Part shown: in pieces, positions 10,803 to 48,000 of the stretch
Position numbering within the stretch: position 1 is the first letter of the stretch
How the letters are laid out: each line of letters opens with the position of its first letter
From: a phage
Sequence record: PZ754631.1
Length of the DNA stretch: 51,438 nt
Reading direction: 5' to 3' (one strand)
Translations under genes and position numbers: made by a program
The notes under the pieces: model-generated
The model's database searches: none
Seen by the model: the letters and a program-made list of their open reading frames with translations, nothing else
What the model was told of the DNA's origin: nothing

Positions 10803-13475
10803 ATGTCAGAACAATACGCAGGCTTGACGCTTGGGGTTGATGTTTCTCAACTCAACAATGCTGTAAAGTCTTTGCAGCAATTCAAGAAGGCAAACGACGA
10901 CGCAAAGGGAAGCGTTGAGAGTTTTGTTGATTCAGAGGTTGTTGCAAGACAAAGAGCCAAACAACTGGCTGAGGAATTGGCAAAGCAGAAGCAAGAATTT
11001 AAAGCAATTCAGTCGGCAATAGATCCGACAGCAAGCAAAATGGATAAGTTGCGCCAGGCTGCGACACAGCTTGATGCGCTTTGGAAAAAAGGAATTGTGC
11101 CGGATGATACATTCTTTGAGTTAGGATCAATTCTTGAGACGCAGCAAAATAAACTGATCGCAACTAAGAAGGCGTTAACTGAAGAAGGCCGCGCGGCGCT
11201 TGAGGAAGCAAAAAATAAGGCAAGGGCAGAGGCTGAGGCAAGAAAGTTCATTGCGGCATTGCAGGCGCAAGCTGACGCAGCGGAAAAAACAAAATCAGAG
11301 CTTGTCGAAATGAGAGCCGCACAACTTGGAGTTAGTGCAGAGGCAGCGCCATTTATTGCAAAAATGAAGGAGCAGGAAAAACAAGCCTCAAAACTTGGCG
11401 TTTCTATGGGGCAGTACAAGCAAGCAATGGCACAATTGCCAATGCAGATCACTGACGTTGTTACTTCTCTTGCTTCAGGTATGCCAGTATGGATGATCGC
11501 AATCCAGCAGGGTGGGCAAATCAAGGACTCATTCGGCGGTGTTGCTAATACGTTTAAAGCGCTAATGACATTTGTCACGCCTTTAAGTGTAGGAATGACG
11601 GCGCTGACTGGTGCTCTTGGTTATGCTGCATATAATGCATACAAAGCAAATGCACAATTGAAGGAGATCACAAAAACCGTTCAGGAGGCAACAGGTCTTT
11701 CCGGTGAGTTTGCAGAGCGGATCGCAACTGGAATCCAGGCGCTATCTGACAAGACAGGAGAGAGCGCAGACAATATCGCAAAGGCTTATATAAGCACTAA
11801 GGATGGAGCAAGCGAGGCTATACAAAAACTCGTCGATGTTGGATTTACCTATGACGAAGCAAAGGCAAAAGTAAACGAATACAAAAACGCATCAAGTTTT
11901 GTAAGTCTTAACAATGAAATTGCTGATCATAAAAACAAAGTTCTTGAGCTTGGCGATTCATGGTATGCGGTCTTAAAAGCAAAACGTGATTATGCTTCAC
12001 CGTCCGGCGGGCTGTTGGGGAAAGAACTTGGTTATGTGAATCCAATGCTGCAATTTGCGAAGAACACCTATGAGGATATAAGGAAGATCGTAAAAGATGC
12101 GAATAAGGATATGGCGGAACGAGCAGCACGCATCGACAGAGAAAACCTTTCCTTAAACAGAGTTCGAGCGGCGCAAGAGGCTTTAAACAAAGCCATAGAG
12201 GATCAGAAGAACGTAGCAAGGACAGCAGACGAAGAGTTGAAAAAACGAGCGGCTGAGAACGTGGAGTTCAGGCGAAAAGAGCTTGAAGAGGCGAAGAAGG
12301 CGCAGCAGCAAAAGGAAAAAGTTGGTGGAGTTGTAAAAGCACCAACAGAGCAGCTTGATAAGGAGCTATATGTTCTCAAAGCGCAACTTGAAACACTAAA
12401 AGAGCACCGAACTGTAAATGATGTTATTTCACGCCAGAGGCAATCTTTGTGGAGCATTGAAAAGCAGATCCAGATCCTGGAGGAAGCGCAAAGCAAACGC
12501 AAGCTGACAAAGGCTGAACAGGCGTTACTAAACGAGCAAAAAACAGTTATTGCTATGGCAAAAGAAAAGGCCGAGATAGGCGATCAGATTGTTTTGCAAC
12601 AGAGAAAGAACAAGCAATACCAGGAAGGGCTAAAGTTCATTCAGCAAACTTCAGATGCCATTGATGCTATGAACTTGCGACAGTCTGGAGCTACAGATCT
12701 GCAAATCCAGCGAGAGCTTGAGTTGAAGAAGTTGCGAACTGATTATGTTGCTGGCGGCGGTAGTATCGACGATGAAATTTATCAGCAGATGGAAGCAAAG
12801 CTGAAGGAGTATTACGCCACTGAGGATCAGCTTAGAAATAACTGGATTGCAGGAGCAAAAAACGCATGGGAGGTTTACGGACAAGATGCAATGGATATGT
12901 ACGGCAACGTGCAAGATATTGCAAGCGAGGCGCTCAGCGGTCTAACCAACCAAATGGCTACATTCCTTGCAACAGGAAAGGCAAACTTTAAGAGCTTCGC
13001 AACGTCAATCATCCAAATGATTATCCAGATGATCACGAAGATGGTTATCTTTAATGCCATATCTGGTGCGATTGGAGGTGACACTTGGACGATTGGAAGC
13101 CTTCTTAAAAATGTTGGATTTGCAACTGGTGGATACACTGGCGACGGCGGGAAGTATGAGCCAGCAGGTGTTGTCCATAAAGGCGAGTTTGTCATGACGA
13201 AGGAGGCAACGAAGCGGATCGGAGTTGGAAATCTTTACAAAATGATGCGCGGTTATGCAAATGGCGGCGTTGTTGGCGGCACTTCATACACTGGCGGCGG
13301 AGTTTCATCTGGAGCAACAAATCTTAATATTGGCGGGATCAGCGTTGATATTAACAACGGAAACGATCCGAAAGGATTGGAGACTGGCGTAAAAATGATT
13401 TTCACTGATATGATTAAGCGTTCCTGTACGCAGGGTGGGGAAGTTTACGAATTTGTTATGTCTAAGCGGGGGTGA
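10803..13475 (+). CDS. tape measure protein
   Basis: 890 aa, long coiled-coil-rich ORF downstream of G/GT chaperones; Gly-rich C-terminal segment. Confidence 0.85.
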
Positions 13476-33688: not shown

Positions 33689-33700
33689 GGAGAATTTTTG

Positions 33701-34816
33701 ATGAAGCAAATCAAAATCACAGATGAACAATTTATCAATGAGCGCAAGCAGGGAAAGACATATAAGCAGATCGCTAATGAGTATGGCATGAACGTTCGCA
33801 GCATTGAGCGCCGCGCGGCACGATTAGCAAAGCAAGGTAAAGTTACAACCATCGGATCACCTGGTTTTGGTGTTACTGGAGAATCAAAGCTAATTGATAA
33901 AGATGGCAATGTGGTTATGACATGGATTAAGACAAGTAAGGACCGCGAACAGTTAGAAGCATTAATGCAGGCCGCTATGGATGCATTTAGCGAAGAAGTT
34001 CCTAGACTTGATCCACAGCCAGAATCACAAAAGGATTATAGCGAGACGTTATCACTGTATCCGATCTTTGACATGCACTTGGGCGCAATGGCGCATAAGC
34101 ATGAATGCGGCGAGAATTGGGATACAGCAACAGCAGAGCGCGTAATGAATAATTTCATTGATTATTCCATCCAGTGCGCGCCGGATAGTGAAAAAGCTGT
34201 TTTGCTGATTGGTGGTGATATGCTTCACAGCGACGGACTGGAAGCGGTGACACCTGCAAGCGGTCACGTATTGGATCAAGATAGTAGATATGCAAAACTT
34301 GTTTATGTTGCCATCCGGTCAGTGCGTCGAGCAATTACAAAGCTGTTATCAAAACACAAAAACGTCGAGATTCAGATCATTGAAGGCAACCACGACCAAA
34401 GCGGCATGATCTGGTTGCGCGCAGCAATGGCGGCAGCATATGAGAATGAGCCACGAGTGCATGTTGATGTGTCTCCGCGAGTAGTTCATCACACACAATA
34501 TGGCAAAACGTTCCTGGCATACCATCACGGGCATACTATCCGCAAACCTGAAACATTGCTAATGATGTGCGCGGCAGACTGGCGCGAAGACTTCGGCAAT
34601 TCAAAAATGATGTATGCTCACGTAGGGCACTGGCATCATCAAACAGTAACTGAAACAAGCCTGGGAATTGTTGAAGTGCATAGCACTATGGCGGCAAAAG
34701 ATGCATATGCGGCGCGCGGTGGATGGCGTTCTCGTCGCCGTGCGGCTGTTATTGTTTATGATAAAGAATACGGAGAAGTCGGGCGATTTATGCATTATCC
34801 AGAAATGGCTGGTTGA
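33701..34816 (+). CDS. HTH-domain metallophosphoesterase (calcineurin/Mre11-like fold)
   Basis: N-terminal HTH-like segment (TYKQIANEYGMNVRSIERRAARL); motifs D-x-H (FDMHLG), GD (GGDMLH), GNHD, HHGH, GHWHH in canonical order. Confidence 0.65.
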   Translation: MKQIKITDEQFINERKQGKTYKQIANEYGMNVRSIERRAARLAKQGKVTTIGSPGFGVTGESKLIDKDGNVVMTWIKTSKDREQLEALMQAAMDAFSEEVPRLDPQPESQKDYSETLSLYPIFDMHLGAMAHKHECGENWDTATAERVMNNFIDYSIQCAPDSEKAVLLIGGDMLHSDGLEAVTPASGHVLDQDSRYAKLVYVAIRSVRRAITKLLSKHKNVEIQIIEGNHDQSGMIWLRAAMAAAYENEPRVHVDVSPRVVHHTQYGKTFLAYHHGHTIRKPETLLMMCAADWREDFGNSKMMYAHVGHWHHQTVTETSLGIVEVHSTMAAKDAYAARGGWRSRRRAAVIVYDKEYGEVGRFMHYPEMAG

Positions 34817-44456: not shown

Positions 44457-45362
44457 ATGTTAAAACTTGCTAACATTAAATTCCCGATCACTTTCCAATC
44501 TCGCGGCGTTGGTCACTTCATGTTTTCAGACGAAAATACATGCACTAAGTTTAACGAATACGGCAAGCCTGATGTTTCAACAATGGAGATTGAGCACTTC
44601 ATTGATGCGCATAACAGGCACTACAACTCACTCAAAGACTACGGCTATGCAATGCCAGGCTACACTTGCTTGCACTATAAGCCATACAGGGGCCAGGTGT
44701 TACCAGTTCGCTCACCAGAACGCGCAGAGATTCCGGCGGTCGAGATGAAAACCTGCGACTATAAAAAATTGTGGTGCTTAAGCGTGGATAACATCAAGTA
44801 TCCGATCGTATTCCACACTGTTGGTTACTCAACGATTCGTTATACGTCACCAGACAACGGCGTTTATAGCGATGGTCAGAAATCAGATTTTAAAGTTGAT
44901 TTCTTTGTTGATGCTCATAACAAATTCAATCCGCACAACGAAAAGGATAAAGTGTATTACGTGGAAGATATTACTAAACACTTGTTTGGAGAAACTCCAT
45001 TCGGCGGCGGGAAGACGTCTATTGCTCAGGCTATAGATAACGTTGCGCGACGTATTGGTGAGCAGATTCACAGTCAAACAATTAAGGCGTCCGGAGGCTG
45101 GCGTATTGATAAGAGCGGCATTGCCTGTCAAGAAATCGTAACGCAGGGCGCGATTGAAGACATGCCGCTTGGCGCCACGCTAAAAGGCGTCCAAATTGCG
45201 GATGGCACATGGTTTGAATTAACGGCTAAGCCAAAGACGATCGAGATTCATGATGACGTTGTTATTCTTCTTCTTCACTATGGCAGCGCGAAAAACCGGA
45301 CTGTTGCAGGTGAGATAAGCATCAAGCGCGGAACGATGGTTAAGTGGAACGTCAAAGTGTAA
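44457..45362 (+). CDS. hypothetical protein with internal tandem domain duplication
   Basis: 301 aa; N-terminal and central segments are homologous (NIKFPITF...FIDAHNRHYN vs NIKYPIVF...FVDAHNKFNP). Confidence 0.6.
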   Translation: MLKLANIKFPITFQSRGVGHFMFSDENTCTKFNEYGKPDVSTMEIEHFIDAHNRHYNSLKDYGYAMPGYTCLHYKPYRGQVLPVRSPERAEIPAVEMKTCDYKKLWCLSVDNIKYPIVFHTVGYSTIRYTSPDNGVYSDGQKSDFKVDFFVDAHNKFNPHNEKDKVYYVEDITKHLFGETPFGGGKTSIAQAIDNVARRIGEQIHSQTIKASGGWRIDKSGIACQEIVTQGAIEDMPLGATLKGVQIADGTWFELTAKPKTIEIHDDVVILLLHYGSAKNRTVAGEISIKRGTMVKWNVKV

Positions 45363-45680: not shown

Positions 45681-45888
45681 TCGCGTTAAGCACAAGTTTA
45701 TTGATAATCATGGCGATGCACTTGAGGTATATAAGTTTGGCGATCGCGTGTTTATTGATGGCACGTTTGAAGGTGGGCGCAGGCCGGATTTTAGGTCGAT
45801 ACTCACTATTGACCAGGTGCGCAAGCTGGCGGATAAGTTAAATGATCTGGCAGATGAAATCGAATACAAGCAAATTCATTTTAATTGA
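45667..45888 (+). CDS. hypothetical protein
   Basis: 73 aa; overlapping start. Confidence 0.5.
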   Translation: METNNRVKHKFIDNHGDALEVYKFGDRVFIDGTFEGGRRPDFRSILTIDQVRKLADKLNDLADEIEYKQIHFN

Positions 45889-45899
45889 TAGGTTTGATA

Positions 45900-46541
45900 A
45901 TGAAAAAATACGAATTTGAACTTTTGGGCAGCAAATACCATTTTTCCACGAGCAAGCCGATTGTTATCGTTGACCTGGACGGAACGTTATCAGACGGAAC
46001 GCATCGCTTGCACCTGCTTCCGACAGAAGATTTGCACCTTACAGAAAGTTGGTCTGAGTTCAATAAGGCGGCTGTTGGCGATTCGCCGATTAAGAGCACG
46101 GTTGCAGTGGTTAACGGATTGTGGATGTCGGGATTTGCTATCGTTATCCTGACCGGACGCAGCGATGAAGTGATGGCGGATACCTGCAAATGGCTTAACG
46201 AAAACGGCATCAAGCACGATGCGTTAATCATGCGCCGCAAGGAAGACAACCGAAAAGACACAATCATCAAAGAAGAAGTCTTGCGCGCTATTGGACTGGA
46301 AAACATTGTGTGCGCTTTTGATGATTCGCCAAACGTGGTTAAGCACTTCCGAAGCCTGGGAATCACAACCTATCAGGTCACGGAATACGACAAGCCACAC
46401 GCTCACCTGAAATCTCACGGCGTGGATGAATTGAAGCCAAAAATCGAATGCGAAGGAGAGCACTGTTTTAGTGTGGTTGATGGTAAATGTTTGCGTTGCG
46501 GCGTGGAGGAATTGAAAAATGATGCAATCAACAGTGATTAA
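45900..46541 (+). CDS. HAD-family phosphatase with C-terminal zinc ribbon (PNK 3'-phosphatase-like)
   Basis: HAD motif I VIVDLDGTL; C-terminal CEGEHC...CLRCG. Confidence 0.6.
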   Translation: MKKYEFELLGSKYHFSTSKPIVIVDLDGTLSDGTHRLHLLPTEDLHLTESWSEFNKAAVGDSPIKSTVAVVNGLWMSGFAIVILTGRSDEVMADTCKWLNENGIKHDALIMRRKEDNRKDTIIKEEVLRAIGLENIVCAFDDSPNVVKHFRSLGITTYQVTEYDKPHAHLKSHGVDELKPKIECEGEHCFSVVDGKCLRCGVEELKNDAINSD

Positions 46542-46698
46542 ATTCCTGGGTAGTGACTGCGAGGAAGTCAACGAATGTTTCACCGCTGGCAAGCGTTATC
46601 ATGCCGATGTGTCGAGTGCTGGCAATTACTTTGTGTACGACGACCACGGCAGCACCTGGGCCATTGATCCAGATGATGATGATTTTTCGGTTGAATAG
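46519..46698 (+). CDS. hypothetical small acidic protein (59 aa)
   Basis: below track threshold; RBS GGAGG; stop TAG embedded in promoter motif, as for other early genes. Confidence 0.45.
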   Translation: MMQSTVIKFLGSDCEEVNECFTAGKRYHADVSSAGNYFVYDDHGSTWAIDPDDDDFSVE

Positions 46699-46738
46699 CA
46701 CTTTTTGCAAAAACAGATTATCGGGCTTGCGGTATAGT
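46695..46738 (+). promoter_or_regulatory. early promoter cassette
   Basis: AATAGCACTTTTTGCAAAAAC, 19 bp, TATAGT. Confidence 0.5.
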
Positions 46739-46769
46739 AAGCCCATCAACAACAAACGAGGATTAAATC

Positions 46770-47033
46770 ATGGTTAATAAAGTTGAGTTTTTCAAAGCGG
46801 TAGACAAGATTGACGGCGAGCCAAGTTTCTTTGCTATCCATTCCATTGACCGAGAAGACGTTGCATACAACGTGATTAATAAAAAAGGTATATCAAAACT
46901 TAGTGACCTGGTTGGTTATATTGTGGCAAACGGGAAATGTGCATGGCCCGATTCTCCACGAGAGCCGCGCCGCCGCGACATGCAAAATCCAGTTCTGCTT
47001 TACACGCTGGTAATTGAAGGAGTCAACAAATGA
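46770..47033 (+). CDS. hypothetical protein
   Basis: 87 aa; promoter module and RBS upstream. Confidence 0.5.
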   Translation: MVNKVEFFKAVDKIDGEPSFFAIHSIDREDVAYNVINKKGISKLSDLVGYIVANGKCAWPDSPREPRRRDMQNPVLLYTLVIEGVNK

Positions 47034-47215
47034 TTTGGTTACTTGTATTTTTAGTGGTTTTCTTTTATATTTCAGGATTATTCATCTTCCGCGCATTGGT
47101 TAAAGAGTGTGATTGCACTGATAAAGATCAGCCTCTTGTTCTGATATTCTGGTTTGTGTGGTTTTGGGTGGCGTTTTACCAGATTGTGCGGGATGAAAGC
47201 GGCTTTAAGTGGTGA
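47030..47215 (+). CDS. small membrane protein (2 TM)
   Basis: 61 aa, two hydrophobic segments; ATGA coupling. Confidence 0.5.
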   Translation: MIWLLVFLVVFFYISGLFIFRALVKECDCTDKDQPLVLIFWFVWFWVAFYQIVRDESGFKW

Positions 47216-47270
47216 TTCTTACTATAGCGCATTCATGCAGTGCGCTATGTTGATATAACAACAGGAGATC

Positions 47271-47408
47271 ATGAAGATGCGAAACTTCGAAAAAATCGTA
47301 ACCAAGAAGAAGCGCTACAGCTATGACGAGCACCGCGAGATGAATCAACGCTATCGCAAAAAGCGCCAGCGCCCAGGTAAAAACTCAAGTCGATATGGAG
47401 GCAACTAA
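47271..47408 (+). CDS. small basic protein (45 aa)
   Basis: below track threshold; RBS AGGAGA; Lys/Arg-rich; stop adjacent to kinase start. Confidence 0.4.
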   Translation: MKMRNFEKIVTKKKRYSYDEHREMNQRYRKKRQRPGKNSSRYGGN

Positions 47409-47409
47409 T

Positions 47410-48000
47410 ATGAAACGCGACATTATCATTCTTAACGGACCGCCAGGAGTTGGCAAAGATACGCTTGCGGCATACTTAACGGGTCATCGTTACGCAGCGG
47501 TTAAAGCGTCATTTAAACAGCCTATGTTCGATATTGCATTCTCCATGCTTGGCGTTTTCCGATATGACGAGTTCATTGATCTGTATAACGACCGTGAGCA
47601 GAAAGAAAAGCCTCAAGCAATCTTGCAAGGTAAGTCTCCGCGACAATTCATGATCTGGATTAGCGAAGAAGTCATGAAGCCAGCTTTTGGCGAGCAATAT
47701 TTTGGGAATCGCATGGTTGAGCAAGTACACGAGATGTACAGAGATTTAGCTGTTGTAATTAGTGATGGCGGATTCCCTGAAGAAATCAAGCCGCTCGTTA
47801 AGGCGGGCCATGAAGTTCACATTTGCCGACTGCATCGCGAAGGATTCACGTTTGATGGCGATTCGCGAAACTATATTGACCTGAGCGGATACCATCACCG
47901 CGTCAAGCATTACGACTTCACAATGACTGATGGCGAGCCAGAAAAGACTGTTGACGAGATCATCAAAACTGTCCAGTGGAAACACATTAAGATCAAATAG
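47410..48000 (+). CDS. P-loop kinase (dNMP kinase-like)
   Basis: N-terminal IIILNGPPGVGKDT P-loop resembling phage deoxynucleoside monophosphate kinases; RBS GGAGG. Confidence 0.6.
   Translation: MKRDIIILNGPPGVGKDTLAAYLTGHRYAAVKASFKQPMFDIAFSMLGVFRYDEFIDLYNDREQKEKPQAILQGKSPRQFMIWISEEVMKPAFGEQYFGNRMVEQVHEMYRDLAVVISDGGFPEEIKPLVKAGHEVHICRLHREGFTFDGDSRNYIDLSGYHHRVKHYDFTMTDGEPEKTVDEIIKTVQWKHIKIK

What the first reader, a model, noticed from the sequence alone, without database searches (positions are those of the whole stretch)
45900..48000. Split kinase / HAD-phosphatase pair with intervening small genes
A HAD phosphatase (DxDGT motif, zinc ribbon) and a separate dNMP-kinase-like P-loop kinase lie ~0.9 kb apart in the same early arm, separated by four small ORFs (two membrane or basic peptides). 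Together they resemble the two halves of polynucleotide kinase-phosphatase, or a nucleotide-salvage pair. No RNA ligase was seen, so an RNA-repair role is unproven.
Basis: partly seen in the sequence, partly recalled or inferred. Interest (0 to 1): 0.4.

Follow-up and report, generated by a model that had tools for sequence, protein, structure and literature searches.

The report
Phage phosphatase plus dNMP kinase cassette
A T1-like coliphage carries a Pnkp-type phosphatase gene and a deoxynucleotide kinase gene that travel together in many phages; this is an already annotated pair, most likely for recycling host DNA into phage DNA, not a split RNA-repair enzyme.

Summary
The window is a Hanrivervirus (T1-like, Drexlerviridae) genome.

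**Phosphatase.** ORF 45900-46541 is a stand-alone DxDxT (HAD) phosphatase of the T4 Pnkp phosphatase family. All catalytic residues are present.

**Kinase.** ORF 47410-48000 is not a polynucleotide kinase. Its fold and motifs match T4 gp1 dNMP kinase. It is 96% identical to the phage KarlJaspers DNK, which was cloned and shown to trigger the Kongming defence. It is 46% identical to Rao1 DNK, which phosphorylates all four dNMPs in vitro.

**Linkage.** The pairing is not chance. In 72 of 80 related viral loci the phosphatase sits directly upstream of the kinase, often overlapping it. Two natural phosphatase-kinase fusion proteins exist. Here four small ORFs (871 bp) have been inserted between the genes.

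**Interpretation.** No ligase is encoded. The "split PNKP / RNA repair" reading is not supported.

**Open point.** The phosphatase's substrate is untested: 3'-phosphate DNA ends or 3'-dNMPs, versus 5'-dNMPs as for T5 Dmp.

**Novelty.** The pair is already annotated in GenBank ("PNK" plus "dNMP kinase") and discussed in the literature, so interest is low to moderate.

The parts
45900..46541 (+). Stand-alone HAD (DxDxT) phosphatase of the T4 Pnkp-phosphatase family, 213 aa (an alternative TTG start lies at 45885). Motif I is D25-L-D27-G-T, motif II T85-G-R87, motif III K119, motif IV D141-D142. The core ends at about residue 178.
46449..46502 (+). C-terminal Cys/His knuckle of the phosphatase (C184, H188, C189, C197, C200): an optional zinc-knuckle-like tail.
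   Evidence: Read directly from the sequence. Modelled as a beta-hairpin at residues 182-191 with pLDDT about 67. Present in only a minority of homologues, and Cys189 is replaced by Trp in several.
46519..46698 (+). Small ORF of 59 aa that overlaps the phosphatase stop by 23 nt. It is homologous to the ~55-aa C-terminal domain that is fused to the phosphatase in 236-264-aa variants.
   Evidence: phrog_11551 at 6.3e-12. BLASTP against the tail of P0123 gives 37% identity over 49 aa, E 4e-8. Fused variants P0122 and P0123 are shown.
46770..47033 (+). Small ORF of 87 aa, function unknown. Part of the lineage-specific insert between the two enzymes.
   Evidence: phrog_25318 and phrog_12951 at about 4e-5. 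Annotated as hypothetical in JakobBernoulli and KarlJaspers.
47030..47215 (+). Small ORF of 61 aa with two hydrophobic segments: a predicted membrane peptide.
   Evidence: phrog_9755 at 1.5e-27. Sequence.
47271..47408 (+). Small, very basic ORF of 45 aa (16 K/R).
   Evidence: phrog_8176 at 2.5e-4. A weak, sub-threshold match to T7 protein 1.1 (PF08200, E 0.022).
47410..48000 (+). Deoxynucleoside monophosphate kinase (DNK), 196 aa, of the T4 gp1 / T5 DNK / Rao1 DNK family. GenBank relatives annotate a 201-aa version starting at 47395.
33698..34816 (+). Homologue of Rao1 gp56; a calcineurin-like-looking motif pattern by eye, but no Pfam family matched. In Rao1 this gene sits immediately upstream of the phosphatase-kinase cassette. 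The ST20 gene at that position carries a depositor's calcineurin-like annotation, and its homology to this ORF was not tested. Here it lies about 11 kb away, beside the lysis genes.
   Evidence: 58% identical to Rao1 gp56 over 377 aa. The KanT1 paper calls it 'DNA repair exonuclease'. No Pfam hit at 1e-3, here or for Rao1 gp56.

Best explanation
The region holds a conserved two-enzyme cassette for deoxynucleotide and DNA-end metabolism. In this lineage it has been pulled apart by four inserted small genes.

**Kinase.** The downstream gene encodes a dNMP kinase (DNK). It uses ATP to convert free 5'-dNMPs to dNDPs, and host Ndk then makes dNTPs. This step is shown experimentally for a 46%-identical homologue. 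It is supported indirectly for a 96%-identical orthologue.

**Phosphatase.** The upstream gene encodes a stand-alone Mg-dependent aspartyl-phosphate (DxDxT) phosphomonoesterase of the T4 Pnkp phosphatase family. D25 is the nucleophile and D27 the acid/base. T85 and K119 hold the phosphate, and D142 binds Mg.

**Inferred pathway.** I infer that the phosphatase removes 3'-phosphates. The substrates would be DNA fragments or 3'-phosphorylated deoxynucleotides produced while T1-like phages degrade the host chromosome. Exonucleases can then finish the job and the 5'-dNMPs can be re-phosphorylated by the kinase. The cassette is thus a salvage module feeding phage DNA synthesis in a phage that has no polymerase, ligase or de novo nucleotide genes.

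**What it is not.** It is not a split PNKP in the evolutionary sense, and it is not an RNA-repair system.

**Status of each step.** Shown: gene identities, catalytic motifs, fold matches, synteny, fusions, and kinase activity of relatives. Inferred: the phosphatase's substrate and the coupling of the two steps.
For: Identity of the phage:
- 91-95% nucleotide identity to Hanrivervirus genomes.

Kinase:
- hhalign covers 73 columns with gp1, including GKDT, D-R-E and L-x-GKSP.
- A MAFFT alignment maps the gp1 dNMP-phosphate ligands R68 and R132, the sugar contact M135, D175, E181 and the lid residue R197 onto invariant R62, R78, M81, D119, E125 and R140 (residue roles from PMC10653934).
- 193 of 201 residues are identical to KarlJaspers DNK, which triggers Kongming.
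- Rao1 DNK (46% identical) phosphorylates dAMP, dGMP, dCMP and dTMP in vitro. Its escape mutation R61Q hits the equivalent of window R62.
- Elsewhere the kinase sits beside dUTPase, thymidylate synthase/RNR, an NT5C nucleotidase or a nucleoside deoxyribosyltransferase.

Phosphatase:
- The T4 catalytic roles come from PMC3592404.

Coupling of the two genes:
- 72 of 80 IMG/VR loci that carry the kinase have the phosphatase upstream on the same strand.
- In 23 of these the genes overlap or abut, and in 11 they lie within 150 bp.
- The same pair occurs in other Drexlerviridae, in the Guernseyvirinae phage ST20, in the Autographiviridae phage MR4 and in Yersinia phage 526-1.
- Two natural HAD_PNKP-DNK fusion proteins share a conserved linker. 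One of them is seen on 3 phage-like contigs.

Genomic context:
- A 44%-identical stand-alone phosphatase lies in the nrdA-nrdB operon of a Krischvirus. A second place in that genome also matched and was not inspected; it may be that phage's pseT.
- T1/TLS degrade host DNA and reuse the nucleotides, and the genes responsible are unassigned (PMC11447400).
- There is no terminator-like site on the + strand between the two genes.
Against: - The phosphatase's substrate has never been measured for any T1-type member.
- It shares a PHROG with T5 Dmp, a 5'-dNMP phosphatase.
- Deleting the kinase in Rao1 had no measurable fitness cost in the laboratory, so salvage is not essential there.
- E. coli already has 3'-phosphatases (Xth, Nfo; from general knowledge). 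No phage nuclease known to leave 3'-phosphates has been identified.
- The gp1 residues K37 and R177 are not conserved in this kinase family: F40 and G121 stand at those positions.
Confidence: 0.55

Rival explanations
1. The phosphatase is a T5 Dmp-like 5'-deoxynucleotidase. It dephosphorylates free 5'-dNMPs, dAMP among them. This would balance pools against its partner kinase, or keep the kinase from feeding dITP alarm synthesis by the Kongming defence.
For: - T5 Dmp and Vibrio phage VPG01 Dmp, both experimentally anti-Kongming, fall in the same PHROG (phrog_415: 3.6e-57 and 1.9e-39) as the window phosphatase (1.2e-66).
- VPG01 Dmp aligns over the whole core: 24% over 152 aa, E 7e-7.
- The motif I to motif II spacer is 60 residues here, 63-64 in the Dmps and 46 in T4 Pnkp. 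The D-L-D-G-T-x4-H-R signature is shared with the Dmps.
- The Kongming paper reports frequent co-existence of Dmp homologues with DNKs.
- rV5-like phages pair the same kinase with an NT5C nucleotidase.
Against: - Rao1 carries the same cassette: gp57 is 59% identical to the window phosphatase and lies 49 bp upstream of its DNK. Yet Rao1 is sensitive to Kongming, accumulates dAMP, dADP and dATP, and is rescued by T5 Dmp supplied in trans. Its own phosphatase therefore does not do Dmp's job. One caveat: Bas26 is also sensitive despite having a functional Dmp.
- Sequence and profile similarity is stronger to T4 Pnkp (35.8 bits) than to the Dmps (9-10 bits). The motif II-IV half, with R-K-D-x-x-x-K-E-E, is Pnkp-like.
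- Natural fusion of a 5'-dNMP phosphatase to a dNMP kinase would create a futile cycle.
Confidence: 0.2
2. The two proteins together act as a non-orthologous polynucleotide kinase-phosphatase. The phosphatase heals 3'-phosphate or 2',3'-cyclic ends and the gp1-like kinase phosphorylates 5'-OH ends. A host ligase then seals broken DNA or RNA.
For: - The phosphatase is a true Pnkp-family member with every catalytic residue.
- The gene pair is tightly coupled and sometimes fused into one polypeptide.
- In Autographiviridae the order is phosphatase-kinase-DNA ligase, or kinase-DNA ligase.
- A gene annotated or described as a nuclease (no Pfam family matched it) precedes the cassette in Rao1 and ST20.
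- No one has tested the kinase on polynucleotides.
Against: - The kinase aligns with T4 Pnkp only over the P-loop. It has no conserved Asp at the position of the Pnk general base. It keeps the NMP-phosphate arginines of gp1.
- Its relatives phosphorylate free dNMPs.
- In other phages it neighbours dUTPase, ThyA, RNR and nucleotidases.
- No ligase of any kind is encoded in the window.
- E. coli RtcB joins 3'-P/5'-OH RNA ends directly, so removing the 3'-phosphate would not help RNA repair (general knowledge).
- In T7, ligase and a nucleotide kinase are also neighbours without any PNK role (general knowledge).
Confidence: 0.12
3. The two genes are functionally independent early genes. They merely share an inherited neighbourhood and have no common pathway.
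For: - Each gene also occurs without the other. The kinase occurs alone in 4HA13, rV5-like phages, LAh_6, K1-ULIP33 and 8 of 80 IMG/VR loci. The phosphatase occurs alone in P1 (pap) and in Krischvirus.
- In this genus 0.9 kb of unrelated genes separates them.
Against: - The linkage is kept across the Drexlerviridae, Guernseyvirinae and Autographiviridae representatives examined and an unclassified Yersinia phage. These phages otherwise differ in gene order.
- The genes have overlapping stop and start codons in 23 loci.
- Independent fusion proteins exist.
Confidence: 0.08

Closest known systems
Escherichia phage KarlJaspers (Bas06, MZ501090) genes bas06_0071 'putative polynucleotide kinase' and bas06_0076 'P-loop NTPase' (DNK QXV82329.1)
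   Same: Same genus. Same layout: phosphatase, four small ORFs, then kinase. The kinase is 96.4% identical. That DNK was cloned and triggers the Kongming defence.
   Different: The KarlJaspers phosphatase is the 179-aa form without the Cys/His tail, and the small domain that follows is a separate ORF there.
Escherichia phage Rao1 gp57 / gp58 (R1DNK)
   Same: Same cassette. The phosphatase is 59% identical and the kinase 46% identical. R1DNK phosphorylates all four dNMPs in vitro and raises dADP in vivo.
   Different: In Rao1 the two genes are 49 bp apart. They directly follow the nuclease-like gene gp56 (no Pfam family matched) and precede the lysis genes. In the window the cassette sits in the right-hand early arm and is interrupted.
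T4 polynucleotide kinase-phosphatase (Pnkp, PseT; PDB 1LTQ, 5UJ0)
   Different: T4 Pnkp is one polypeptide in the order kinase-phosphatase. It has a Pnk-type kinase and works with the T4 RNA ligase. Here the kinase is of the gp1 type, the gene order is phosphatase-kinase, the proteins are separate and there is no ligase. The window phosphatase has about 14 extra residues between motifs I and II.
T4 gp1 and T5 dNMP kinases (PDB 1DEK; phrog_139)
   Same: Same fold, GKDT P-loop and NMP-phosphate arginines. Same PHROG as T5 DNK.
   Different: Only 27-30% identity over the N-terminal half. It lacks the ~35-residue insert of gp1 and the residues K37 and R177. It does not reach the Pfam DNMK model that T5 DNK matches.
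T5 Dmp 5'-deoxynucleotidase (anti-Kongming)
   Same: Same PHROG (phrog_415). Same DxDxT chemistry and a similar motif I-II spacer. It also occurs in phages that encode a DNK.
   Different: Direct similarity to T5 Dmp is limited to motif I, and the C-terminal half is Pnkp-like. Rao1's copy does not protect against Kongming.

Membership tests
Bifunctional polynucleotide kinase-phosphatase (T4 Pnkp type) | DxDxT acylphosphatase domain with a nucleophile Asp, an acid/base Asp, a motif II Ser/Thr, a motif III Lys and a motif IV Asp | tested here: met
   D25, D27, T85, K119 and D141/D142 are invariant in 35 homologues. They align to T4 S211, K258 and D277/D278. Residue roles come from PMC3592404.
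Bifunctional polynucleotide kinase-phosphatase (T4 Pnkp type) | Pnk-type P-loop 5'-kinase domain (homology beyond the P-loop; general-base Asp after strand 2) | tested here: not met
Bifunctional polynucleotide kinase-phosphatase (T4 Pnkp type) | Kinase and phosphatase in one polypeptide | tested here: not met
   The two genes are separate and 868-871 bp apart. Fusions exist elsewhere, but with the gp1-type kinase and in the reverse order.
Bifunctional polynucleotide kinase-phosphatase (T4 Pnkp type) | Partner RNA or DNA ligase in the same genome | tested here: not met
   No ligase domain in the 13 non-structural window ORFs of at least 180 aa that were scanned. The other 13 sit at the positions of JakobBernoulli's structural genes, or overlap one on the opposite strand (11009-11578). 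None is annotated in the collinear JakobBernoulli genome.
Bifunctional polynucleotide kinase-phosphatase (T4 Pnkp type) | Activity on polynucleotide 5'-OH and 3'-phosphate ends | not testable with these tools
   This needs enzyme assays. None has been published for T1-type proteins, as far as the held literature shows.
Pfam HAD_PNKP (PF25109) | Score above the curated gathering threshold | tested here: met
   77.3 bits against a cut-off of 27.6, covering profile positions 3-140 of 143.
Phage dNMP kinase (DNK; T4 gp1 / T5 / Rao1, phrog_139) | Family-level sequence match and gp1 fold | tested here: met
Phage dNMP kinase (DNK; T4 gp1 / T5 / Rao1, phrog_139) | GKDT P-loop and dNMP-phosphate-binding residues of gp1 (K37, R68, R132, R177) | tested here: inconclusive
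   GKDT, R62 (= R68) and R78 (= R132) are invariant. K37 aligns to F40, with an invariant K36 nearby. R177 aligns to G121.
Phage dNMP kinase (DNK; T4 gp1 / T5 / Rao1, phrog_139) | Demonstrated dNMP kinase activity of a close relative | tested here: met
   96.4% identical to KarlJaspers DNK, which triggers Kongming. 46% identical to R1DNK, which was assayed in vitro. The window protein itself has not been assayed.
Pfam DNMK (PF21448) | Match to the curated model | tested here: not met
   The window kinase gives no hit. T5 DNK hits at 4e-11.
T5 Dmp-type 5'-deoxynucleotidase | Sequence relationship to T5 Dmp or VPG01 Dmp | tested here: inconclusive
   Same PHROG. Directly, only 24% over 152 aa to VPG01 Dmp, and motif I only to T5 Dmp.
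T5 Dmp-type 5'-deoxynucleotidase | 5'-dNMP phosphatase activity / protection from Kongming | not testable with these tools
   Indirect literature evidence points against it. Rao1 has the homologue yet is sensitive, and is rescued by T5 Dmp in trans.

The most novel reading that the evidence does not exclude
The conserved, sometimes fused, Pnkp-type phosphatase plus gp1-type kinase could be a previously unrecognised bifunctional unit acting on one substrate. One possibility is a non-orthologous PNKP in which a dNMP-kinase fold has been recruited to phosphorylate 5'-OH polynucleotide ends. Another is a '3'-phosphate salvage' enzyme pair that converts 3'-phosphorylated deoxynucleotides or DNA fragments into dNDPs. 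No such pathway has been described for phages.
Probability: 0.12. Interest if true: 0.55.

Novelty: already known. Interest (0 to 1): 0.25.

Why it matters
Practically, the result corrects a widespread mis-annotation. The T1-type "polynucleotide kinase" has no kinase domain, and its neighbour annotated as "ATP-binding protein / P-loop NTPase" is a dNMP kinase. That kinase is also the trigger sensed by the Kongming defence system, so this phage is predicted to be Kongming-sensitive.

The only open biology is what the Pnkp-like phosphatase dephosphorylates, and why it is so tightly linked, and occasionally fused, to a dNMP kinase. Answering that could identify the long-missing enzymes of host-DNA recycling in T1-like phages. 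It would not overturn any current view.

Tried and rejected
- Sequence searches of the kinase against PDB, both single sequence and profile, gave only P-loop matches. The relationship to gp1 needed a fold search and an alignment.
- NCBIfam gave nothing useful for either protein.
- The promoter and terminator scan was no better than shuffled sequence, so it cannot define the operon.
- I considered that the calcineurin-like protein upstream of the kinase in K1-ULIP33 was a non-homologous replacement of the HAD phosphatase. I set this aside because genes of similar size and annotation sit upstream of the HAD gene in MR4 and ST20, where the HAD is also present. Homology between these genes was tested only for Rao1 gp56 against the window ORF 33698-34816.
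- I tested whether the N-terminal (cap) half of the phosphatase is specifically Dmp-like. Half-profiles gave only weak, motif-I-limited scores for the Dmps and for T4 Pnkp alike. Apart from spacer length, the idea is not supported.
- A search for the alanine-scan paper on the T4 Pnkp phosphatase found nothing in the library.
- The retron Eco2 paper matched the search terms only through its methods text.
- RNA repair through host RtcB was considered and rejected on logic. RtcB needs the 3'-phosphate that this enzyme would remove.
Full report
**What the window is.** The 4 kb around the finding is 91-95% identical at the nucleotide level to many Escherichia, Shigella and Salmonella phages of the genus Hanrivervirus (Drexlerviridae, T1-like). 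Examples are slyngel, JLBYU09, egaa, pSf-1 and JakobBernoulli. The window is collinear with the complete JakobBernoulli genome. It starts with the terminase genes and has all genes from about 43 kb to the end on the + strand.

**The observation.**
- The phosphatase runs 45900-46541 (ATG start, as in homologues). It carries DLDGT and scores far above threshold for Pfam HAD_PNKP (E 1.7e-21) and phrog_415 (1.2e-66).
- The kinase ORF is 47395-48000. GGAGG lies 7 nt before the ATG at 47410 and homologues are 196 aa, so the real start is 47410.
- The kinase has a GPPGVGKDT P-loop and hits phrog_139, 'deoxynucleoside monophosphate kinase', at 1.2e-51.
- The gap is 868-871 bp and holds four small + strand ORFs. 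One is a two-segment hydrophobic peptide and one a very basic 45-mer. All four have PHROG relatives.
- The 'zinc ribbon' is a short C-x3-H-C ... C-x2-C tail. It is modelled as a hairpin at moderate confidence. It is present only in a minority of homologues, and one Cys is often replaced.
- No ligase domain was found in the 13 non-structural ORFs of at least 180 aa that were scanned. The remaining 13 occupy the positions of JakobBernoulli's terminase, portal, capsid and tail genes, or overlap one on the opposite strand. None is annotated in that genome.

**The phosphatase.**
- By sequence, its nearest solved relatives are Pnkp1 of the Pnkp1-Rnl-Hen1 RNA-repair complex (4xrp) and the T4 Pnkp phosphatase domain (1ltq, 5uj0).
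- Profile comparison with T4 Pnkp gives probability 96% over motifs II-IV. I checked my recalled T4 sequence against PDB first.
- The residues that carry out T4 Pnkp chemistry are Asp165 (nucleophile), Asp167 (acid/base), Ser211, Lys258 and Asp278 (PMC3592404). They correspond to D25, D27, T85, K119 and D142, all invariant in 35 homologues.
- It is therefore a competent DxDxT phosphomonoesterase of the Pnkp phosphatase family. It has no kinase domain, so the common GenBank label 'polynucleotide kinase' is a misnomer.

**The kinase.**
- Sequence searches against PDB see only the P-loop.
- The model is very confident (pLDDT 91.6).
- Profile comparison aligns 73 columns with gp1, covering GKDT, D-R-E and L-x-G-K-S-P. 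With T4 Pnkp only the 27 P-loop columns align. The gp1 sequence was verified.
- An alignment with gp1 places its dNMP-phosphate ligands R68 and R132, sugar contact M135, D175, E181 and lid R197 on invariant R62, R78, M81, D119, E125 and R140. K37 and R177 are not conserved (residue roles from PMC10653934).
- There is no conserved acidic residue where polynucleotide kinases place their general base.

**Experimental anchor from the literature.** The Kongming defence paper (bioRxiv 10.1101/2024.12.20.629578) shows that phage dNMP kinases (DNKs) trigger that system.
- The DNKs work by helping to make dITP.
- One DNK the authors cloned and found toxic with Kongming is from phage KarlJaspers, also a Hanrivervirus.
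- Its sequence, given in their supplement, matches the window ORF at 193 of 201 residues. KarlJaspers has the same layout: phosphatase, four small ORFs, kinase.
- Their model enzyme, Rao1 DNK, is 46% identical to the window kinase. It phosphorylates dAMP, dGMP, dCMP and dTMP in vitro and raises dADP in cells.
- One Rao1 escape mutation, R61Q, hits the equivalent of window R62.
- A Webervirus (T1-like) DNK, 43% identical, also triggers the system.
- The kinase's activity on free dNMPs is therefore as good as established. Activity on polynucleotide ends has simply not been tested.

**Is the pairing meaningful?** Yes.
- Among 80 viral contigs that carry a relative of the kinase, 72 have the phosphatase upstream on the same strand.
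  - In 23 the genes overlap or abut, typically by 1-4 nt.
  - In 11 they are within 150 bp.
  - In 38 they are separated by 0.15-2.1 kb of small genes, as here.
- The pair is adjacent in Klebsiella T1-like phages, in the Kagunavirus ST20, in Yersinia phage 526-1 and in the Pseudomonas phage MR4 (Autographiviridae). In MR4 a DNA ligase follows.
- A search of 1.8 billion representative proteins found two natural fusions of about 400-460 aa: HAD_PNKP at the N-terminus and the gp1-like kinase at the C-terminus.
  - Both halves are intact, and the two fusions share a linker motif.
  - One occurs on three phage-like contigs.
- The two proteins therefore very probably work in one pathway. The 0.9 kb spacing in this genus is a secondary insertion.
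- In Rao1 the cassette directly follows a gene the KanT1 paper calls a DNA repair exonuclease, and it precedes the lysis genes. The ST20 gene at that position carries a calcineurin-like annotation.
- In the window the homologue of the Rao1 gene (58% identical) is at 33698-34816, next to the lysis genes. No Pfam family matched it. The cassette has moved about 11 kb away.

**What the pathway is.** The context of each gene elsewhere points to deoxynucleotide metabolism.
- The kinase sits next to dUTPase and DNA ligase (4HA13).
- It sits next to an NT5C-type deoxynucleotidase, thymidylate synthase and RNR (rV5-like phages).
- It sits next to a nucleoside deoxyribosyltransferase and RNR (LAh_6).
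- A stand-alone phosphatase 44% identical to the window's overlaps the end of nrdB in a T4-like Krischvirus. A second matching place in that genome was not inspected and may be its pseT.
- T1 and TLS are known to degrade the host chromosome and reuse its nucleotides. The TLS re-annotation states that the responsible early genes are unidentified (PMC11447400).
- A recent T1-like genome paper already calls the two genes 'PNK' and 'dNMP kinase', and suggests they extend the replication module to enhance nucleotide supply (PMC13164509).

My best reading is a salvage module. The phosphatase clears 3'-phosphates from DNA breakdown products (fragments, 3'-dNMPs or bisphosphates). The kinase pushes 5'-dNMPs to dNDPs, and host Ndk finishes the conversion. 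The kinase step is shown for relatives. The phosphatase substrate and the coupling are inference.

**The main rival for the phosphatase.**
- T5 Dmp is a 5'-dNMP phosphatase that protects T5 from Kongming. It and the VPG01 Dmp fall in the same PHROG as the window phosphatase.
- They share the DLDGT-x4-HR signature and a long motif I-II spacer: 63-64 residues against 60 here and 46 in T4 Pnkp.
- The Kongming authors note that Dmp homologues often co-exist with DNKs.
- Direct similarity is weak, however. It is 24% over 152 aa to VPG01 Dmp and motif I only to T5 Dmp. The profile scores 9-10 bits for the Dmps against 35.8 bits for T4 Pnkp.
- More tellingly, Rao1 carries a 59%-identical copy right next to its DNK. 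Yet it is Kongming-sensitive, accumulates dAMP, dADP and dATP, and is rescued by T5 Dmp supplied in trans. The T1-type enzyme evidently does not do what Dmp does.
- Fusing a 5'-dNMP phosphatase to a dNMP kinase would also be a futile cycle.

I give this rival about 0.2.

The split-PNKP reading, possibly for RNA repair, gets about 0.12. The phosphatase half fits, and so do the tight coupling, the fusions and the occasional downstream DNA ligase. Against it:
- the kinase is a gp1-type NMP kinase with proven dNMP activity in relatives;
- no ligase is encoded;
- removing 3'-phosphates would work against the host's RtcB RNA ligase (general knowledge).

**Verdict.** The pair is an ordinary, already annotated feature of T1-like phages. 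The kinase's function is effectively known. The residual interest lies in the untested substrate of the mis-named 'PNK' phosphatase and in its strikingly conserved partnership with a dNMP kinase.

Noticed in passing
window 46519-46698 (and phosphatase C-terminus 46430-46541): The C-terminus of the phosphatase is modular across relatives. Four forms occur: core only (~179 aa), core plus Cys/His knuckle (~206 aa), core plus a ~55-aa domain (236-237 aa), or all three (264 aa). In the window that ~55-aa domain is a separate ORF that overlaps the phosphatase stop by 23 nt in another frame, so this is a gene fission/fusion polymorphism.
   Followed up: partly
proteins P0257 (403 aa; locus L097 6001-7212) and P0265 (461 aa; L098 498-1883): These are natural single-polypeptide fusions of a HAD_PNKP phosphatase (N-terminal) with the gp1-like dNMP kinase (C-terminal). 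They are joined by a linker with a shared G-x-F-x-G-P-E-L-H-G motif. P0257 lies in a 60.8 kb phage-like contig with RdgC, NinH, a PAPS-reductase-like gene and a Dam methylase.
   Followed up: partly
GenBank MG0656xx records found: Twenty records named 'Campylobacter phage' with host Campylobacter jejuni are 86-94% identical in nucleotide sequence to this E. coli T1-like phage. They are unannotated. They look like T1-like coliphage contaminants or mislabelled records rather than true Campylobacter phages.
   Followed up: no
L085 4606-5199 (Escherichia phage rV5_ev158): In rV5-like phages the same kinase family is followed, with overlapping codons, by an NT5C-family 5'(3')-deoxyribonucleotidase. 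Thymidylate synthase and RNR come next. This is a second, different phosphatase partner for the kinase.
   Followed up: partly
L090 3498-3974 (Shigella phage JK32, Krischvirus): A 158-aa stand-alone HAD_PNKP phosphatase, 44% identical to the window's, overlaps the end of nrdB. A second place in the same genome also matched the query. It was not inspected and may be the phage's pseT.
   Followed up: partly
L091 2983-3489 (phage P1 pap): The P1 gene pap (annotated Pap) is a member of the same HAD_PNKP family (39% identity to the window phosphatase; Pfam 5.4e-12). It stands alone with no kinase nearby.
   Followed up: no
window 44457-45362: A 301-aa ORF just upstream of the cassette matches phrog_7116 in two stretches, suggesting an internal duplication. 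It has no Pfam family and its function is unknown.
   Followed up: no
window 47271-47408: The very basic 45-aa peptide immediately before the kinase has a weak, sub-threshold resemblance to T7 protein 1.1 (PF08200, E 0.022).
   Followed up: no
window 33698-34816: This 372-aa ORF shows a calcineurin-like-looking motif pattern by eye (GDMLHSD, GNHD, HGH, GHWHH), yet no Pfam family matched at 1e-3. It is 58% identical to Rao1 gp56. In Rao1 this gene directly precedes the phosphatase-kinase cassette. In this genus the two have been separated by about 11 kb.
   Followed up: partly
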